From positions 384,001-448,000 of the forward strand of contig CM000434.1 in assembly GCA_000165345.1 (NCBI GenBank): a DNA stretch of 64,000 bases, read 5' to 3'. Under the pieces are notes generated by a model, which was given only the letters and a program-made list of their open reading frames with translations, was not told the DNA's origin and ran no database searches. A program made the position numbers and the translations under genes. Positions 244 to 64,000 of this stretch are shown here, in pieces (positions within the stretch are counted from its first letter, which is position 1; the number at the start of each line of letters is the position of its first letter).

Positions 244-1077
244 TTATTGGAGAAATGAATCAATTTTAGATTTGAATTCATCATATGAATACTTAATGCT
301 GAGTTTCATAAATTGAAAATTTATATTGTGTAAATTTTCAAAACTAAATGGCATGTCATTGTCTATTAGATCGGATAAATCGTGATCTGAGTTGCAATAT
401 CGGACGTTAAACAATCGCTCTCTGCATTTGTCAAAGTTTTAAATCATTTTATTAGAAACTTACATGCTACGCTCTAATTCATCTTTAATATATGAAATGC
501 TTCGTGAAGTAATTAGATCTGATTTATTGAATAATATTAGCACTCTGTATATCTGTTTTTTTGTTTCGGAATCATTGTTCGAGTAAATTTTAATATTGTG
601 AATTTCTCTAATAATTGAAAACAAAATTTCCGCAGCATCTTTAAAAGACGATTTGTCGTTACTATCAATTACAAAAATTATTGAAACAGAGTTATTGAGA
701 TATTTCAGAATAAAATCATTAATAATTCTTCTGTTCCCAGGGATGTCAACCAAATATCTGTTATCTTTTATTCTTGTCACTCCAGGAACAATAGAAGTTG
801 TTGTTCTTGTTGTTTTATTTTTTTTTACCTAGATGCAATTAAAGATAACTTAGAATAATTAGAAAATTACCTTATAGAATAGTGTGGTCTTTCCCGATCC
901 AGAAGGACCAATTATGAGTGAATAAATATTCTGTGACTTTGTACCTTGGATGCTAAATAAAATAATGCTAATTATATAATTAGCTAAGTAAATTCCAATA
1001 TCAATAAACTTAAGGGAATGGAGTAGAGAGACTCCTATCACTATAGCTATTGTGTAAAATAATAGTTCCCAAAACAT
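244..1077 (-). CDS. SRPRB: Signal recognition particle receptor beta subunit (SR-beta, Arf-like GTPase with N-terminal TM anchor); 3 exons: 871-1077 (or from TTG at 1152), 464-828, 244-421; introns 829-870 and 422-463 (42 nt each)
   Basis: TM segment MFWELLFYTIAIVIGVSLL, then P-loop IIGPSGSGKTTLFYK. Exon 2 gives TTTSIVPG...LVDIPGN (switch/DxxG) and LFNKSDL (NKxD). The apparent stop of ORF 460-780 is a GTAAGT donor. Spliced exon 3 adds ...MPFSFENLHNINFQFMKLSIK (SAK-like G5) and gives ~274 aa, matching SR-beta architecture. Confidence 0.7.
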
Positions 1078-1333
1078 TTTTAATATAATCAAATTTGAAG
1101 ATAGTATCAAATTAAACAGCTTAAAATTGACCGCCTGAAGGTAATAAATCAAACTTTCTTAAAATAGATTGAAAATAATTAATCATCAAATAATGAAATT
1201 GTATGTATATCCACGCTCTAATAGATTTAGCTACATTATAAACATAAATAGTTTAGTTTATTTGAACAGCAATCGAATTTTTGTTCTGGGCTTTGTATTT
1301 GCATTCCTAAATATCAGTCAACTATAGAATTGT

Positions 1334-1370
1334 TCCCGCAATTTGTGTGAATGGACTGTATGCACATGCA
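1334..1370. promoter_or_regulatory. Upstream motifs before the TSP gene: E2F-like TTCCCGC (1334-1340) and TGCACATGCA (1361-1370)
   Basis: Motifs seen ~45-80 bp upstream of the ATG at 1413. E2F-like (TTTGGCGGGAAA) and GCATGCA-type motifs are over-represented upstream of Cryptosporidium and other apicomplexan genes. Confidence 0.35.
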
Positions 1371-1412
1371 ACATAGCTTAAACAGTAAAATTTAGCCATT
1401 ATTTGAATAATA

Positions 1413-60588: not shown

Positions 60589-60605
60589 TATAACTATATA
60601 GGAAT

Positions 60606-63443
60606 TTATTTTTCATTAATCGAATTTCTTGAGTTTTTTATTCTATTTGCAGAATTGATCGCTCTTTGAATTTTTATTCCTTTAAATTCGATTATTTTTC
60701 TTTGATTAGACTCTGCAGCACGTAATTTAAGAACTTCTAGTCTGTTCTTTTTAATATTTTTATTAACCGATTTGTCATTAGCATCGGGGGAAATTAATTT
60801 CCTATTATATTTAGTTTTAGAATTTATCTTATTTATATTATCACTGAGATTAGGAGGTTTGAATTTTTCGTCATTTGATAAATAAGTTTTCGTGTCATCA
60901 ATGTTCACTTTGTCATTTGTTATCATACAAGAAATTGGTATATTGTTTCCCCAAAATAATTTATGAGCATATAAATTGCCAAGAGTAAATCTGAAATATT
61001 TATCTAAGTATTTTTTTGAAGATTGATGTTTTTCTTCAGAGTCATTCAAATCAAAATTTATTTGAAAAACATCTTGTTCAAACTTCGTGTTTTTTTGTGG
61101 TAAATAAAGTAAACCAATAAACTGAAGTGTATTCATAACTCGAATAAATCTACTGAATAAATCTTTATATTGATCAGGAAGACAATTTATTTCTAACCTT
61201 ACTTTATTAGTTTTTTCAAGTTTATTTTTTGAATCAGATTTATTGCAATATTTATTTGAGCTGTCCATTATTTGCTTACAAAATGTAGAAAATAATTTAA
61301 ACAAATTTATTTTATTTCCATTATTTAAAGTGTAAATTTTATAAATTGCTGAAAAGTCATCAAAAATATTTTCATTATCACAAGTTTGGTCAAGCTCATT
61401 GATTATTTTCGGAATAAAATTAGGTGTAAGAATTTCTTCTAAAAAATAGTCCATTTGATTAGAAAAAGTTTTAATATTTGAATAGATAAATATGCGAAAA
61501 ACATTATCACTAATATGCTCTGAAAGCTGTGATTCATCAAATGAATGAATGAAAAGTTTTGAAATGTTACATTCAAAAGTTTTGATATTCCATGGAAGCT
61601 CAATGAATGCTTGATTTTTTATTTCATAAAAAGATTTATTTCTTGTTAAAAAAATCTCGGTAATATTATTTATTTTTGTAAAAACTATGTTTTTATCTAA
61701 GGCAACGTTATTTATACCTTTAATTTCACGAGTTAGATTGCCTATTTTTTTAGTCAGTTCCTTTCTTCTATTCCTTTCGAGTACCTCTAACCATTCGATA
61801 ATCAAGTTATATCGCTCGTTAATATCAAATATATTTAACATATCCGAAAGTATGGTATTAATAATACACAATCCTAGAGCTATGGACTTTAGGTTCAATT
61901 TAAGCAGAGAAATTTCAACTATTGCTGCTTCTCTTAACTTAATTCCAGATAAAAAACTTTCTTCATTTATCTGGTATTTGAGTTTCAATTGATCTATTAT
62001 TTGTTTGCTAAGATCCTGAATACTTATTTCCTCTTTACGTTGAAACAAAAAATCAAAGTGATTATCTGTGAAATGCAATTGAAATATAATAAAAATAGTC
62101 TTCAAAGAAGAAGTTATACTGTAATCATACTGAAAGAAGTTATCTTTTATATGCCTTATGCATGCAGAAGATAAAAGTGGGAAGGAAAAAAGTTCTGATT
62201 CAGAATCAGTGATTGCGTTGGAAGGATCATTTAATTCAAGATTATTTCCTGGTATTAACTCTTTAAATTTTACAAAATTGCCTTTAAGAAAAATTCTTGA
62301 AGTAAAGTCATCTAAATGTAGAAGTGGATTTATTATTGACTGAAAGAAAGCCATCTTTGAGTCTAGCAATTTTACGGAAATAAATTTCAATCTATTCATA
62401 ATGGCTTGACCGACAATGCGCTGAGCATATAATATATTAGTTGAAATACCCAAAATTATTGTGAATGTGATTTTATATGTTTCTTTAATTTGAGATATAA
62501 TTTCGAGCAGTTGTCCTAGTTGACCGGGAGCAAGGCATTCACTACTTGGAATCAAAATAATTATGGGCTTAATATTTAAATTGTTTTTCTTTCTCATTTT
62601 AAATATCGACCCAATAAATTTGAGGCCTTTAATAATGTTTATGTATTTTTGGTTACTGTTTCCATTTGATAAAGAAAATTTTGAACTGTCGAAATTAAAT
62701 GGAATGGTTTGGATAGGTAACCACTTGTTTTTACTTTCAACTTTAGAGGAATCAGAAAAAACTATTTTTTTGTTTAAGTCAAAGTGAGTTTCTTTTATTC
62801 CAGAGTGTTCAATGTTACATTTCCTTTTATTCCTTTTAACTCTGTCAGCTAATTTTTCATCATTTTCTTTTAGTTTATTAAGATAAGTTGATTTCCCAGC
62901 CAATGAGTCATTCTCGTAATCATATCCTTTTTGAGAATCAATAAAATTATTTTCCTCAATTAGCAAGTCTAAAAATTTATCTTTAATGCTATTCCAGATT
63001 GTCTCTAATAATTTTGATACGTTTAATCCTTCGATACCTATTTTCTCGTGGTCCAAGAATATTGTATATGGCTGGCCTGAAGAATTGAGTAGTTCTTCCA
63101 AAACATTAAATGTTATAAGATGGTCGCAATTGTTTGATCCTGATAGCGCACCTATGACAGTTAGCTCGTAGTTTACATCATGATCCACGAGGGAATCAAT
63201 GCTTTCGAGTATTTTTACCATCCCATCGCTCATCTCAAGTCTAAAACCATTTAGAAATTTTGAGAAAAATAAATTCCAAGATTTATTAAACGATAAATTG
63301 AAGTCATTTTTACAGTAGGTAAATGGCCTAACAGCTCCAAATGGAGTGAATATATTGCTTTTATCCGTTTTTTTTGAGTTGGAAAATTTGATATTTTCTT
63401 TTCTATATTCTATTACAGAGATATCAAATGGTTTATCCTGCAT
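60606..63443 (-). CDS. ORC3: ORC3-like (origin recognition complex subunit 3) protein, 945 aa
   Basis: KPIIILIPSSECLAPGQLGQLLEIISQIKETYKITFTIILGISTNILYAQRIVGQAIMNRLKFISVKL parallels the conserved ORC3 block ([62 protein letters not shown]). Assignment from this block only. Confidence 0.5.
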   Translation of the reverse strand: MQDKPFDISVIEYRKENIKFSNSKKTDKSNIFTPFGAVRPFTYCKNDFNLSFNKSWNLFFSKFLNGFRLEMSDGMVKILESIDSLVDHDVNYELTVIGALSGSNNCDHLITFNVLEELLNSSGQPYTIFLDHEKIGIEGLNVSKLLETIWNSIKDKFLDLLIEENNFIDSQKGYDYENDSLAGKSTYLNKLKENDEKLADRVKRNKRKCNIEHSGIKETHFDLNKKIVFSDSSKVESKNKWLPIQTIPFNFDSSKFSLSNGNSNQKYINIIKGLKFIGSIFKMRKKNNLNIKPIIILIPSSECLAPGQLGQLLEIISQIKETYKITFTIILGISTNILYAQRIVGQAIMNRLKFISVKLLDSKMAFFQSIINPLLHLDDFTSRIFLKGNFVKFKELIPGNNLELNDPSNAITDSESELFSFPLLSSACIRHIKDNFFQYDYSITSSLKTIFIIFQLHFTDNHFDFLFQRKEEISIQDLSKQIIDQLKLKYQINEESFLSGIKLREAAIVEISLLKLNLKSIALGLCIINTILSDMLNIFDINERYNLIIEWLEVLERNRRKELTKKIGNLTREIKGINNVALDKNIVFTKINNITEIFLTRNKSFYEIKNQAFIELPWNIKTFECNISKLFIHSFDESQLSEHISDNVFRIFIYSNIKTFSNQMDYFLEEILTPNFIPKIINELDQTCDNENIFDDFSAIYKIYTLNNGNKINLFKLFSTFCKQIMDSSNKYCNKSDSKNKLEKTNKVRLEINCLPDQYKDLFSRFIRVMNTLQFIGLLYLPQKNTKFEQDVFQINFDLNDSEEKHQSSKKYLDKYFRFTLGNLYAHKLFWGNNIPISCMITNDKVNIDDTKTYLSNDEKFKPPNLSDNINKINSKTKYNRKLISPDANDKSVNKNIKKNRLEVLKLRAAESNQRKIIEFKGIKIQRAINSANRIKNSRNSINEK

Positions 63444-63644
63444 ATTATTAATTCTAAAATTCCATTTAGGTATTTGGTTATTCGGATGTTATATTAATTA
63501 ATACAAATAATAAACGAATTAAGAACTTATATATTTTAATTATCTTTACTTATTACTTAACATATTTATCCACTATACATTAGTTCGTCCTCCCATTCAT
63601 AATGCGCTAAGACATTTTATTATCGAAATTTTAGTTAAATAAAA

Positions 63645-64000
63645 ATGAAAAATAAAATAAAAGCTTTAGCGACGTCTAATTCCTCAATAGAAAACAATAA
63701 TAAAGTATTCAAACAATGCAGATTAATCGGGACAGTGCTTTTCGGGACTTTAGCAGGAATTTTGGGGTTTAAGGGATTTTCAGGTAAGTCATCTTATGAT
63801 TATTAATATTCCTATTAAACTTCTGTTTTAGGCATTATGTTCTATATTTACTCCTTAATAACTACTTTAATCATCATAGTACTGAAGATAAGAATTAATA
63901 AGTGCAATCACTATTTTGACACGTTTAATGAAGTATTAGGAATTGGTGATTACTTTCTAGTAAGTTCTCAGAAAATAAATATAAATAAATGACTAATTTT
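63645..64000 (+). CDS. EMC6: EMC6 (ER membrane protein complex subunit 6)-like, partial at window end; exon 1 63645-63783, intron 63784-63831 (48 nt), exon 2 63832-63959, then a further GTAAGT intron running off the window
   Basis: Spliced ...QCRLIGTVLFGTLAGILGFKGFS|GIMFYIYSLITTLIIIVLKIRINKCNHYF resembles human EMC6 ([51 protein letters not shown]). Canonical GTAAGT...TTTTAG junctions. Confidence 0.55.

What the first reader, a model, noticed from the sequence alone, without database searches (positions are those of the whole stretch)
244..64000. The ORF track misses short GT-AG introns in a narrow 41-48 nt class (one of 61 nt); at least five genes are spliced
Five genes, which appear as truncated or fragmented ORFs, become full-length conserved proteins once canonical introns are removed. 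The intron lengths are:
- SR-beta: 42 and 42 nt.
- APC10: 41, 46, 44, 45 and 43 nt.
- The small Lys-rich gene: 44 nt.
- EMC6: 48 nt.
- MAK16: 61 nt.

All donors are GTAAGT, GTATGT, GTAAGA or GTAATT. All acceptors are T-rich followed by YAG. The very narrow length distribution is itself notable and can be used as a search prior for other genes here. Genes annotated from ORFs alone in this genome will be systematically wrong at their ends.
Basis: partly seen in the sequence, partly recalled or inferred. Interest (0 to 1): 0.7.

Follow-up and report, generated by a model that had tools for sequence, protein, structure and literature searches.

The report
Known short introns in Cryptosporidium genes

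Summary
Removing GT-AG introns from five fragmented genes (SR-beta, MAK16, APC10, a DUF1764 protein, EMC6) restores full-length conserved proteins. Pfam scores rise sharply, and alignments to solved human structures run across the junctions without gaps.

The window is Cryptosporidium parvum chromosome 6. Every spliced protein I derived is already in GenBank, letter for letter. The IOWA-ATCC entries come from an annotation whose authors state that all its introns have RNA-seq support.

Seven of the introns sit at the same positions in C. muris, and five also in C. bovis. There they have different lengths and unrelated sequence.

- APC10 intron 1 is 42 nt, not 41.
- One acceptor is AAG, not YAG.
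- EMC6 has a second 44-nt intron (63960-64003) that runs over the window end, so the one-intron model is truncated at its C-terminus.

Two claims are overstated:
- Only 5 of about 32 genes here are spliced.
- The donor/length/acceptor motif alone has about 20% precision (41 hits, 8 true, 29 expected by chance).

Published genome-wide intron lengths are broader (median 61, mean 82-99 nt).

Verdict: correct, ordinary and already known. The only small extras are that these introns are shorter than their C. muris and C. bovis counterparts, and that several public gene models still mis-handle them.

The parts
244..1077 (-). SR-beta gene (signal recognition particle receptor beta subunit). Three exons: 1077-871, 828-464, 421-244. 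Product 249 aa.
   Evidence: Model and translation. Pfam SRPRB scores 76.7 bits, against 43.5 for the best ORF. The alignment to mammalian SR-beta (7nfx_v) runs over both junctions without a gap. The identical protein is QOY41045.1 / WRK32764.1.
829..870 (-). SR-beta intron 1: 42 nt, phase 0, GTAATT...CTAG
   Evidence: It joins the exon carrying the P-loop (GPSGSGKT) to the rest of the GTPase domain. If retained, a stop follows after 3 codons.
422..463 (-). SR-beta intron 2: 42 nt, phase 2, GTAAGT...GCAG
   Evidence: The unspliced frame stops at the TAA inside the donor. One public model (191 aa) ends there; the 249-aa model removes the intron.
44465..45302 (-). MAK16 gene. Two exons: 45302-45241 and 45179-44465. 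Product 258 aa.
   Evidence: Pfam Ribosomal_L28e covers profile 1-114 of 115 at 115 bits, against 39.2 for the unspliced ORF. It aligns to human MAK16 (8fkp) residues 3-228 across the junction. The identical protein is CAD98724.1 / EAZ51509.1 / QOY41062.1.
45180..45240 (-). MAK16 intron: 61 nt, phase 2, GTAAGT...TTAG
   Evidence: C. muris has an intron at the same position and phase (exon 1 = 62 nt), there 74 nt long.
48862..49738 (+). APC10 gene. Six exons of 126, 302, 61, 47, 51 and 70 nt. Product 218 aa.
   Evidence: Pfam ANAPC10 scores 204.2 bits, against 129 for the best ORF and 193.6 for the four-intron model. It aligns end to end with orthologues, including transcript-derived ones (alignment A1). 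The identical protein is QOY41065.1 / WRK32784.1.
48988..49029 (+).
   Evidence: The junction falls inside the invariant SSAK|PGNG motif. The position is conserved in C. muris (63 nt) and C. bovis (46 nt).
49332..49377 (+). APC10 intron 2: 46 nt, phase 2, GTAAGT...TAAG (acceptor AAG, not YAG)
   Evidence: The position is conserved in C. muris (63 nt) and C. bovis (72 nt, also ending in AAG). The old Iowa II model (132 aa, P0008) stops here.
49439..49482 (+). APC10 intron 3: 44 nt, phase 0, GTAAGA...TTAG
   Evidence: The junction FCIQ|IAIL lies in a conserved block with no gap. The position is conserved in C. muris (74 nt) and C. bovis (45 nt).
49530..49574 (+). APC10 intron 4: 45 nt, phase 2, GTATGT...TTAG. 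Its length is a multiple of 3 and it has no stop, so it can be mistaken for coding sequence.
   Evidence: Public 233-aa models retain it (KAL5368058.1, WKS78294.1, C. hominis KAL3127532.1). Retention puts 15 aa inside the GRDTH-[VI]RQI motif, an insertion found in no orthologue, and costs 10.6 Pfam bits. The orthologous intron is 61 nt in C. muris (frame-shifting). It is 60 nt in C. bovis, with an immediate in-frame TAA.
49626..49668 (+). APC10 intron 5: 43 nt, phase 2, GTAAGT...TCAG
   Evidence: The position is conserved in C. muris (79 nt) and C. bovis (47 nt). The last exon supplies the conserved C-terminal arginine.
52090..52487 (+). DUF1764 gene (the 'small Lys-rich gene'). Two exons: 52090-52390 and 52435-52487. 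Product 117 aa.
   Evidence: Pfam DUF1764 covers profile 7-100 of 100 at 75.5 bits, against 7-83 at 31.6 bits unspliced. The identical protein is QOY41069.1 / WRK32788.1. The old Iowa II model (102 aa, EAZ51511.1) is unspliced.
52391..52434 (+). DUF1764 intron: 44 nt, phase 1, GTAAGT...ATAG, GC 39%
   Evidence: C. muris has an intron at the same position and phase, splitting the Gly codon before GGGTPDCPF, there 79 nt long.
63645..64000 (+). EMC6 gene, cut by the window end. Exons: 63645-63783, 63832-63959, and a third at 64004-64057 outside the window. Product 106 aa.
   Evidence: Sequence beyond the window was read from locus L009. Pfam EMC6 covers profile 2-81 of 81 at 46.2 bits. It aligns to human EMC6 (6ww7_F) residues 15-110, up to the C-terminus. 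The identical protein is QOY41075.1 / WRK32794.1.
63784..63831 (+). EMC6 intron 1: 48 nt, phase 1, GTAAGT...TTAG
   Evidence: The junction lies in GFKGFS-G-IMFY and aligns without a gap to human [10 protein letters not shown].
63960..64000 (+). EMC6 intron 2: 44 nt in all (63960-64003), phase 0, GTAAGT...TTAG. Its last 3 nt lie beyond the window.
   Evidence: L009 15187-15230. Removing it replaces the tail 'VSSQKININK*' with 'SFILFWSISYCICHIYY*', which matches human 'TYVLFWTFLYGMVHVY'.

Best explanation
The window is part of Cryptosporidium parvum chromosome 6. This is a compact, AT-rich apicomplexan genome (about 30% GC) in which most genes have no introns.

Five of about 32 genes here (SR-beta, MAK16, APC10, a DUF1764 protein, EMC6) are interrupted by eleven canonical U2-type GT-AG spliceosomal introns of 42-61 nt (median 44).

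Inferred mechanism, from general knowledge of splicing:
- The strong 5' splice site (mostly GTAAGT) pairs with U1 and U6 snRNA.
- A degenerate YTRAY-like branch site, where one is visible, lies 7-14 nt upstream of the acceptor.
- The intron is removed by the ordinary two-step lariat reaction.

The tight clustering near 42-48 nt reflects shortening in the C. parvum lineage towards the smallest workable intron size. It is not a special intron class. The same introns are 61-79 nt long in C. muris.

Shown here: the boundaries, frame restoration, restoration of homology, positional conservation, and identity to public models. Not shown here: RNA-level splicing. That rests on the published statement that all introns of the IOWA-ATCC annotation are supported by RNA-seq.
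For: Organism:
- Proteins from the window are found exactly on three 1.31-Mb NCBI chromosomes.
- They carry C. parvum names and chromosome-6 locus tags such as cpbgf_6001950 and CPHLJ_6g1890.

Introns:
- Exact coordinates and clean translations are, for the second EMC6 intron.
- Pfam score and coverage rise for every gene on splicing.
- Alignments to solved human or mammalian MAK16, EMC6 and SR-beta are continuous over the junctions.
- APC10 aligns end to end with orthologues, including transcriptome-derived sequences.
- The seven introns tested are at identical positions and phases in C. muris, and the five APC10 introns also in C. bovis. APC10 exon sizes 302/61/47/51/70 are identical in the three species. 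Intron lengths differ and the sequences are unrelated.
- All seven spliced products exist verbatim in GenBank.

Literature:
- 84% of C. parvum introns start with GTAAGT, and no clear branch-point consensus was found (PMC2483917).
- 10.8% of genes have introns, and intron GC is 22% (PMC4637869).
- The IOWA-ATCC introns are '100% supported by RNA-seq', and intron shortening is described as part of genome reduction (PMC8744675).
Against: - I could obtain no transcript read or cDNA contig. No Logan-derived full-length spliced protein is in the clusters. Two exon-exon junction 32-mers were absent from the metagenome collection.
- The branch site is weak. Only 7 of 11 introns have a YTRAY 7-14 nt from the 3' end.
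- Public annotations disagree on three of the eleven introns: SR-beta intron 2, APC10 intron 4 and EMC6 intron 2.
- Whether 42-48 nt is the genome-wide mode could not be tested. Published means are 82-99 nt.
Confidence: 0.96

Rival explanations
1. APC10 intron 4 (49530-49574) is coding sequence rather than an intron, or is a retained-intron isoform. The true product would then be the 233-aa protein annotated in several assemblies.
For: The segment is 45 nt, in frame and free of stops. Three public annotations keep it: KAL5368058.1, WKS78294.1 and C. hominis KAL3127532.1.
Against: - It inserts 15 aa into the most conserved APC10 motif (GRDTH|[VI]RQI), where no orthologue has an insertion.
- It lowers the Pfam score by 10.6 bits and shortens the profile coverage.
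- It has GTATGT...TTAG ends and 24% GC, like the other introns.
- The orthologous intron shifts the frame in C. muris (61 nt). In C. bovis it has an immediate in-frame TAA.
- The 218-aa form is the one in the IOWA-ATCC annotation, whose introns are stated to be RNA-seq supported (PMC8744675).
Confidence: 0.05
2. EMC6 has only one intron and ends inside the window at 63992 as a 99-aa protein.
For: An open frame runs from exon 2 to a TGA at 63990-63992. KAL5368068.1 and WKS78304.1 are annotated this way.
Against: - The 99-aa form covers only Pfam EMC6 positions 2-62 of 81 and lacks the last transmembrane helix.
- A GTAAGT donor at 63960 and a TTAG acceptor 44 nt later give a tail, SFILFWSISYCICHIYY. 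That tail aligns to the C-terminal end of human EMC6 and raises the Pfam score to 46.2 bits with full profile coverage.
- The 106-aa form is the one in the IOWA-ATCC and IOWA-BGF annotations and in C. meleagridis.
Confidence: 0.04
3. The frame breaks are assembly errors, or the genes are decaying pseudogenes, and are not introns.
For: None beyond the fragmented look of the ORF track.
Against: - The same sequence is present in several independent assemblies and in many sequencing-run assemblies.
- Every break is bounded by GT...AG with a strong donor.
- The breaks sit at the same codon positions in species only 77-81% identical in protein sequence, while the intervening sequence is unrelated.
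Confidence: 0.01
4. The 42-48 nt introns form a distinct, length-constrained class that needs a specialised splicing mechanism. That would make the narrow distribution biologically notable in itself.
For: Ten of the eleven introns in the window are 42-48 nt long. Published genome-wide statistics are broader (PMC2483917, PMC4637869).
Against: - The sample is small and not independent: five of the eleven introns come from one gene.
- The orthologous introns are 45-79 nt long in C. bovis and C. muris, with the same kinds of splice sites. Length is therefore drifting, not fixed.
- Splice signals are canonical.
- From my own knowledge: modes near 40-50 nt are common in compact eukaryotic genomes, and a right-skewed distribution with a short mode fits the published median of 61 and mean of 82-99 nt.
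Confidence: 0.05

Closest known systems
Annotated spliceosomal introns of Cryptosporidium parvum (IOWA-ATCC / IOWA-BGF annotations; Isaza 2015 PMC4637869; Baptista 2022 PMC8744675)
   Same: They are the same objects. All the spliced products derived here are identical to deposited proteins. The donor bias towards GTAAGT, the low GC content and the unclear branch point match published descriptions (PMC2483917, PMC4637869).
   Different: Nothing essential differs. Some other deposited annotations mis-handle three of the eleven introns: an SR-beta model of 191 aa, an APC10 model of 233 aa and an EMC6 model of 99 aa. The 2004 Iowa II models were truncated (APC10 132 aa, DUF1764 protein 102 aa).
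Orthologous introns in C. muris RN66 and C. bovis
   Same: Positions and phases are identical for the five APC10 introns in both species, and for the MAK16 and DUF1764 introns in C. muris. Boundaries are GT-AG.
   Different: The introns are longer and their sequences are unrelated. Lengths are 61-79 nt in C. muris and 45-72 nt in C. bovis, against 42-61 nt in C. parvum. C. parvum is the shorter one in 7 of 7 and 5 of 5 comparisons.
Short-intron classes of other compact eukaryotic genomes, for example the Guillardia theta nucleomorph (about 42-52 nt) and Schizosaccharomyces pombe (mode about 45-50 nt). These figures are recalled from memory and were not tested here.
   Same: Canonical GT-AG introns that cluster just above a minimal workable length in a reduced, AT-rich genome.
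   Different: These are unrelated lineages. Many intron-poor species have a strong branch-point consensus, whereas C. parvum does not (PMC2483917).

Membership tests
U2-type (GT-AG) spliceosomal introns | GT at the 5' end and AG at the 3' end | tested here: met
   True for all 11 introns.
U2-type (GT-AG) spliceosomal introns | Extended 5' splice site complementary to U1 snRNA (GTAAGT-like) | tested here: met
   GTAAGT seven times, GTATGT twice, GTAAGA once, GTAATT once. This agrees with the reported 84% GTAAGT in C. parvum (PMC2483917).
U2-type (GT-AG) spliceosomal introns | Branch-point motif and pyrimidine-rich 3' region | tested here: inconclusive
   A YTRAY motif 7-14 nt from the 3' end is present in 7 of 11 introns. 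T content is 23-50%. The literature also finds no clear branch-point consensus in this species (PMC2483917).
U2-type (GT-AG) spliceosomal introns | Removal restores one open reading frame that encodes a conserved protein continuous across the junction | tested here: met
U2-type (GT-AG) spliceosomal introns | Intron position conserved in orthologues while the intron sequence and length diverge | tested here: met
   Seven introns tested in C. muris and five in C. bovis; all are at identical positions and phases. The SR-beta and EMC6 introns were not tested in other species.
U2-type (GT-AG) spliceosomal introns | Absent from mature mRNA (split reads or cDNA) | not testable with these tools
   No transcript data could be reached. 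The published annotation that contains the same models states that its introns are 100% supported by RNA-seq (PMC8744675).
U12-type introns | A conserved ATCCTT-type 5' splice site (after the terminal G or A) and a TCCTTAAC-type branch site (consensus recalled from memory) | tested here: not met
   None of the 11 donors is GTATCC or ATATCC.
ANAPC10 / SRPRB / Mak16 (with Ribosomal_L28e) / DUF1764 / EMC6 protein families (host genes) | Pfam score above the curated gathering threshold, with near-complete profile coverage | tested here: met
   ANAPC10 204.2 bits (cut-off 21); SRPRB 76.7 (25); Ribosomal_L28e 115 (33.2) and Mak16 75.3 (23.5); DUF1764 75.5 (27); EMC6 46.2 (23.3).

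The most novel reading that the evidence does not exclude
The most novel reading still open has two parts.

1. The C. parvum lineage has pushed its introns down to a hard floor of about 42 nt. Every orthologous intron compared is shorter than in C. muris (7 of 7) and C. bovis (5 of 5). A genome-wide ortholog-by-ortholog comparison might then define the minimal functional intron geometry of the apicomplexan spliceosome.

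2. The stop-free 45-nt APC10 intron might occasionally be retained, giving a 15-aa insertion isoform.

Both would be modest refinements of known biology. Intron shortening in Cryptosporidium is already stated in the literature (PMC8744675).
Probability: 0.15. Interest if true: 0.25.

Novelty: already known. Interest (0 to 1): 0.08.

Why it matters
The result matters mainly for annotation quality.

- It shows that a stop-to-stop ORF track mis-describes about 15% of the genes in this genome.
- Several deposited Cryptosporidium annotations still carry wrong models for SR-beta (191 aa), APC10 (233 aa, intron retained inside the conserved motif) and EMC6 (99 aa, last helix missing).
- One annotation probably also removes a false 69-nt intron from Tra1.

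It opens no new biological question. Cryptosporidium introns, their GTAAGT bias, their short size and their under-annotation in the 2004 genome have all been published and corrected with RNA-seq.

Tried and rejected
1. Direct look-up of spliced proteins on transcript-derived contigs.
- The cluster listing showed only genomic ORF fragments from sequencing-run assemblies and no cDNA-derived full-length products.

2. Two exon-exon junction 32-mers (the MAK16 junction and APC10 junction 4) were searched in the metagenome collection. Neither gave a hit.

4. A codon-usage log-odds scan of intergenic ORFs for unannotated exons found nothing convincing, and the score barely separates real small exons from noise at this size. 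No extra intron is claimed.

5. The Rfam, tRNA and tandem-repeat scans of the window found nothing relevant.

6. The supplement of Isaza 2015 holds only dN/dS rows for these genes and no gene-structure notes. The Theileria paper gave no Cryptosporidium intron lengths.

7. A genome-wide intron-length histogram for C. parvum could not be built, because only DNA around the window can be fetched.

8. Rejected explanations:
- Pseudogenes or assembly errors.
- Programmed frameshifts: the breaks are 42-61 nt long and GT-AG bounded.
- Inteins: 10 of the 11 elements have a length that is not a multiple of 3 or contain an in-frame stop.
- Group I or group II introns: far too short.
- U12-type introns: wrong donor.

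Full report
**What the window is**

The sequence has about 30% GC and is densely packed with long ORFs on both strands. Proteins translated from it occur letter for letter on three NCBI chromosomes of about 1.31 Mb: CP029785.1, CP141123.1 and CM109966.1. The deposited names and locus tags identify Cryptosporidium parvum chromosome 6, for example cpbgf_6001950, CPHLJ_6g1890 and CPATCC_002707. I count about 32 genes in the 64 kb. They include Tra1 (5,542 codons), a PI3/PI4-kinase, two kinesins, MCM10, ARS2, a DEAD-box helicase, CNNM, D123, SRP19 and BCCIP.

**Checking the observation**

I rebuilt each of the five gene models from the raw sequence.

| Gene | Strand, span | Introns (length, phase) | Product |
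|---|---|---|---|
| SR-beta | minus, 1077-244 | 829-870 (42 nt, phase 0); 422-463 (42 nt, phase 2) | 249 aa |
| MAK16 | minus, 45302-44465 | 45180-45240 (61 nt, phase 2) | 258 aa |
| APC10 | plus, 48862-49738 | 48988-49029 (42); 49332-49377 (46); 49439-49482 (44); 49530-49574 (45); 49626-49668 (43) | 218 aa |
| DUF1764 ('small Lys-rich gene') | plus, 52090-52487 | 52391-52434 (44 nt, phase 1) | 117 aa |
| EMC6 | plus, from 63645 | 63784-63831 (48 nt, phase 1); see below for a second intron | 106 aa with both introns |

- APC10 intron 1 is 42 nt, not 41. Only 42 gives a coding sequence divisible by three.
- The acceptor of APC10 intron 2 is AAG, not YAG.
- EMC6 has a second intron.

Read directly from the sequence, ten of the eleven introns place an in-frame stop in the message if retained. 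In five phase-2 cases the stop is the TAA inside xxG|TAAGT.

**Is it more than chance?**

The motif alone is not convincing.
- With the four donor hexamers, a length of 41-48 nt and a YAG acceptor there are 41 hits on both strands, of which 8 are true. First-order Markov simulations of the window give 29.0 +/- 5.8.
- A version that also requires a T-rich tail gave 30 hits against 21.5 +/- 5.4.

The evidence that these are introns is functional.
- Splicing raises the Pfam scores: SRPRB 43.5 to 76.7 bits; Ribosomal_L28e 39.2 to 115 bits (profile 1-114 of 115); ANAPC10 129 to 204.2; DUF1764 31.6 to 75.5 (profile reaching 100 of 100); EMC6 18.4 (below threshold) to 35.1 and then 46.2.
- Alignments to solved structures are continuous across the junctions: human MAK16 in 8fkp, human EMC6 in 6ww7 and mammalian SR-beta in 7nfx.
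- APC10 aligns end to end with Cryptosporidium orthologues and with transcript-derived sequences from other alveolates and from Chromera. The junctions fall inside invariant blocks such as SSAK|PGNG, FCIQ|IAIL and THVR|QIR.

**The second EMC6 intron**

The one-intron EMC6 model (99 aa) covers only Pfam positions 2-62 of 81. A GTAAGT donor sits at 63960. In the public chromosome, which continues past the window (L009), a TTAG acceptor follows 44 nt later. The intron is therefore 63960-64003 and its last 3 nt lie outside the window. Removing it yields the tail SFILFWSISYCICHIYY. This aligns with the C-terminal TYVLFWTFLYGMVHVY of human EMC6 and completes the Pfam profile. Even so, the claim that EMC6 'becomes full-length' with one intron is wrong.

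**Independent comparative test**

I fetched the APC10 loci of C. muris and C. bovis, whose APC10 proteins are 77% and 81% identical to the C. parvum protein. I then solved their exact exon structures from the deposited proteins.
- Both have five introns at the same positions. Exons 2-6 are 302, 61, 47, 51 and 70 nt in all three species.
- Intron lengths are 63, 63, 74, 61 and 79 nt in C. muris and 46, 72, 45, 60 and 47 nt in C. bovis. The intron sequences are unrelated to those of C. parvum.

In a larger C. muris locus:
- The MAK16 intron is at the identical position (exon 1 = 62 nt, phase 2) and is 74 nt long.
- The DUF1764 intron splits the same glycine codon before GGGTPDCPF and is 79 nt long.

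This is the expected signature of spliceosomal introns. It also settles APC10 intron 4. In C. parvum that intron is 45 nt, in frame and stop-free, and some public models translate it (233 aa). Its orthologue shifts the frame in C. muris and carries an immediate in-frame TAA in C. bovis. Retaining it inserts 15 residues into the GRDTH-[VI]RQI motif, where no orthologue has an insertion, and costs 10.6 Pfam bits.

**Already known**

An exact-sequence look-up found all my spliced products in GenBank:

| Protein | Matching accessions |
|---|---|
| SR-beta, 249 aa | QOY41045.1, WRK32764.1 |
| MAK16, 258 aa | CAD98724.1, EAZ51509.1, QOY41062.1 |
| APC10, 218 aa | QOY41065.1, WRK32784.1 |
| DUF1764 protein, 117 aa | QOY41069.1, WRK32788.1 |
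| EMC6, 106 aa | QOY41075.1, WRK32794.1 |

- The QOY/CPATCC entries belong to the IOWA-ATCC annotation. [quoted passage not shown]
- Isaza et al. raised the share of intron-containing genes from 4.3% to 10.8%, with 688 introns of mean length 99 bp and 22% GC (PMC4637869).
- Irimia and Roy reported 84% GTAAGT donors, no clear branch-point consensus, and a median of 61 and mean of 82 nt for 213 introns (PMC2483917).
The 2004 Iowa II models are truncated: APC10 is 132 aa and ends in intron 2, and the DUF1764 protein is 102 aa and unspliced. The problem has since been recognised and repaired.

**The generalisations**

- Only 5 of about 32 genes here are spliced. For the other 27, the gene span equals three times (residues + 1) in the public annotations. 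'Systematically wrong' is therefore too strong.
- The narrow length class holds for this sample: 42, 42, 42, 43, 44, 44, 44, 45, 46, 48 and 61 nt, median 44. But five of the eleven values come from one gene, and the published genome-wide figures are broader.
- The orthologous introns in the sister species are 45-79 nt long. The likeliest reading is that these introns sit at the short mode of a right-skewed distribution, produced by shortening in this lineage. C. parvum is the shorter in 7 of 7 comparisons with C. muris and 5 of 5 with C. bovis.
- I could not build the genome-wide histogram with the tools available.

**Mechanism**

These are ordinary U2-type splicing substrates. Each has a strong U1-complementary donor. 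The branch site is weak: a YTRAY with its branch A 7-14 nt from the 3' end occurs in 7 of 11 introns. The bodies are AT-rich (17-39% GC) and the 3' terminus is AG. This part is inferred from sequence and general knowledge. No RNA data were reachable.

**Side observations**

- One public Tra1 model is 5,519 aa, against the 5,542-codon open frame, a difference of exactly 69 nt.
- The only in-frame 69-nt GT..AG with a strong donor is 15145-15213 on the minus strand.
- Its 23 residues (VRNLLCSLLRDDLHAFSVHRALQ) align with conserved residues of solved Tra1/TRRAP structures.
- This is probably a false intron call. It shows the risk of using the motif as a prior.
- A C. hominis model of 818 aa fuses DUF1764 exon 1 to the downstream kinesin.

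**Verdict**

The finding is accurate in substance, with three small errors. It is explained by canonical splicing in a known genome and is already present in public annotations. Interest is low.

Noticed in passing
window 15145-15213 (minus strand), inside Tra1 (14797-31425): One public annotation gives Tra1 as 5,519 aa, while the open frame is 5,542 codons, a difference of exactly 69 nt. The only strong-donor, in-frame 69-nt GT..AG is this segment (GTAAGA...ACAG, about 40% GC). Its 23 residues align with conserved residues of solved Tra1/TRRAP structures, so the predicted intron is probably false. I did not see the 5,519-aa sequence itself, so the identification is inferred.
   Followed up: partly
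window 52090-55012 (plus strand): A C. hominis model of 818 aa (OLQ17594.1 / PPA64850.1, P0148) joins DUF1764 exon 1 (...LEDINL) directly to the downstream kinesin ORF. This looks like a false gene fusion across the intergenic region, of the kind Baptista et al. warn about.
   Followed up: partly
window 52498-52556 (plus strand): A GTAAGT...AACAG stretch of 59 nt begins 11 nt after the DUF1764 stop codon. It could be a 3'-UTR intron or just a chance motif hit. It has no coding consequence.
   Followed up: no
window 460-1077 (minus strand): One public SR-beta model is 191 aa. It removes intron 1 but then terminates at the TAA inside the donor of intron 2, so it lacks the C-terminal 58 residues present in the 249-aa model.
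   Followed up: yes
L011/L016 (C. muris), L012 (C. bovis) versus window 44465-52487: Every orthologous intron compared is shorter in C. parvum. APC10: 42/46/44/45/43 nt, against 63/63/74/61/79 in C. muris and 46/72/45/60/47 in C. bovis. MAK16: 61 nt against 74 in C. muris. DUF1764: 44 nt against 79 in C. muris.
   Followed up: yes
window 52868/53009-55012 (plus strand) and 55165-55653/55701 (minus strand): Public annotations disagree on the start codons of the kinesin (667 or 714 aa) and of the Inhibitor_I42 protein (162 or 178 aa). These are start-site choices, not introns.
   Followed up: no
window 49669-49738 (plus strand): The last APC10 exon ends in ...YQILR. The terminal arginine is nearly invariant across the aligned orthologues. 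From memory, it corresponds to the C-terminal IR tail by which APC10/Doc1 docks on the APC/C. It is only recovered when intron 5 is removed.
   Followed up: partly
window 1-64000: There are no tRNA genes and no Rfam family matches at gathering threshold in the whole 64 kb. There are only two tiny tandem repeats, at 189-228 and 40456-40496.
   Followed up: yes
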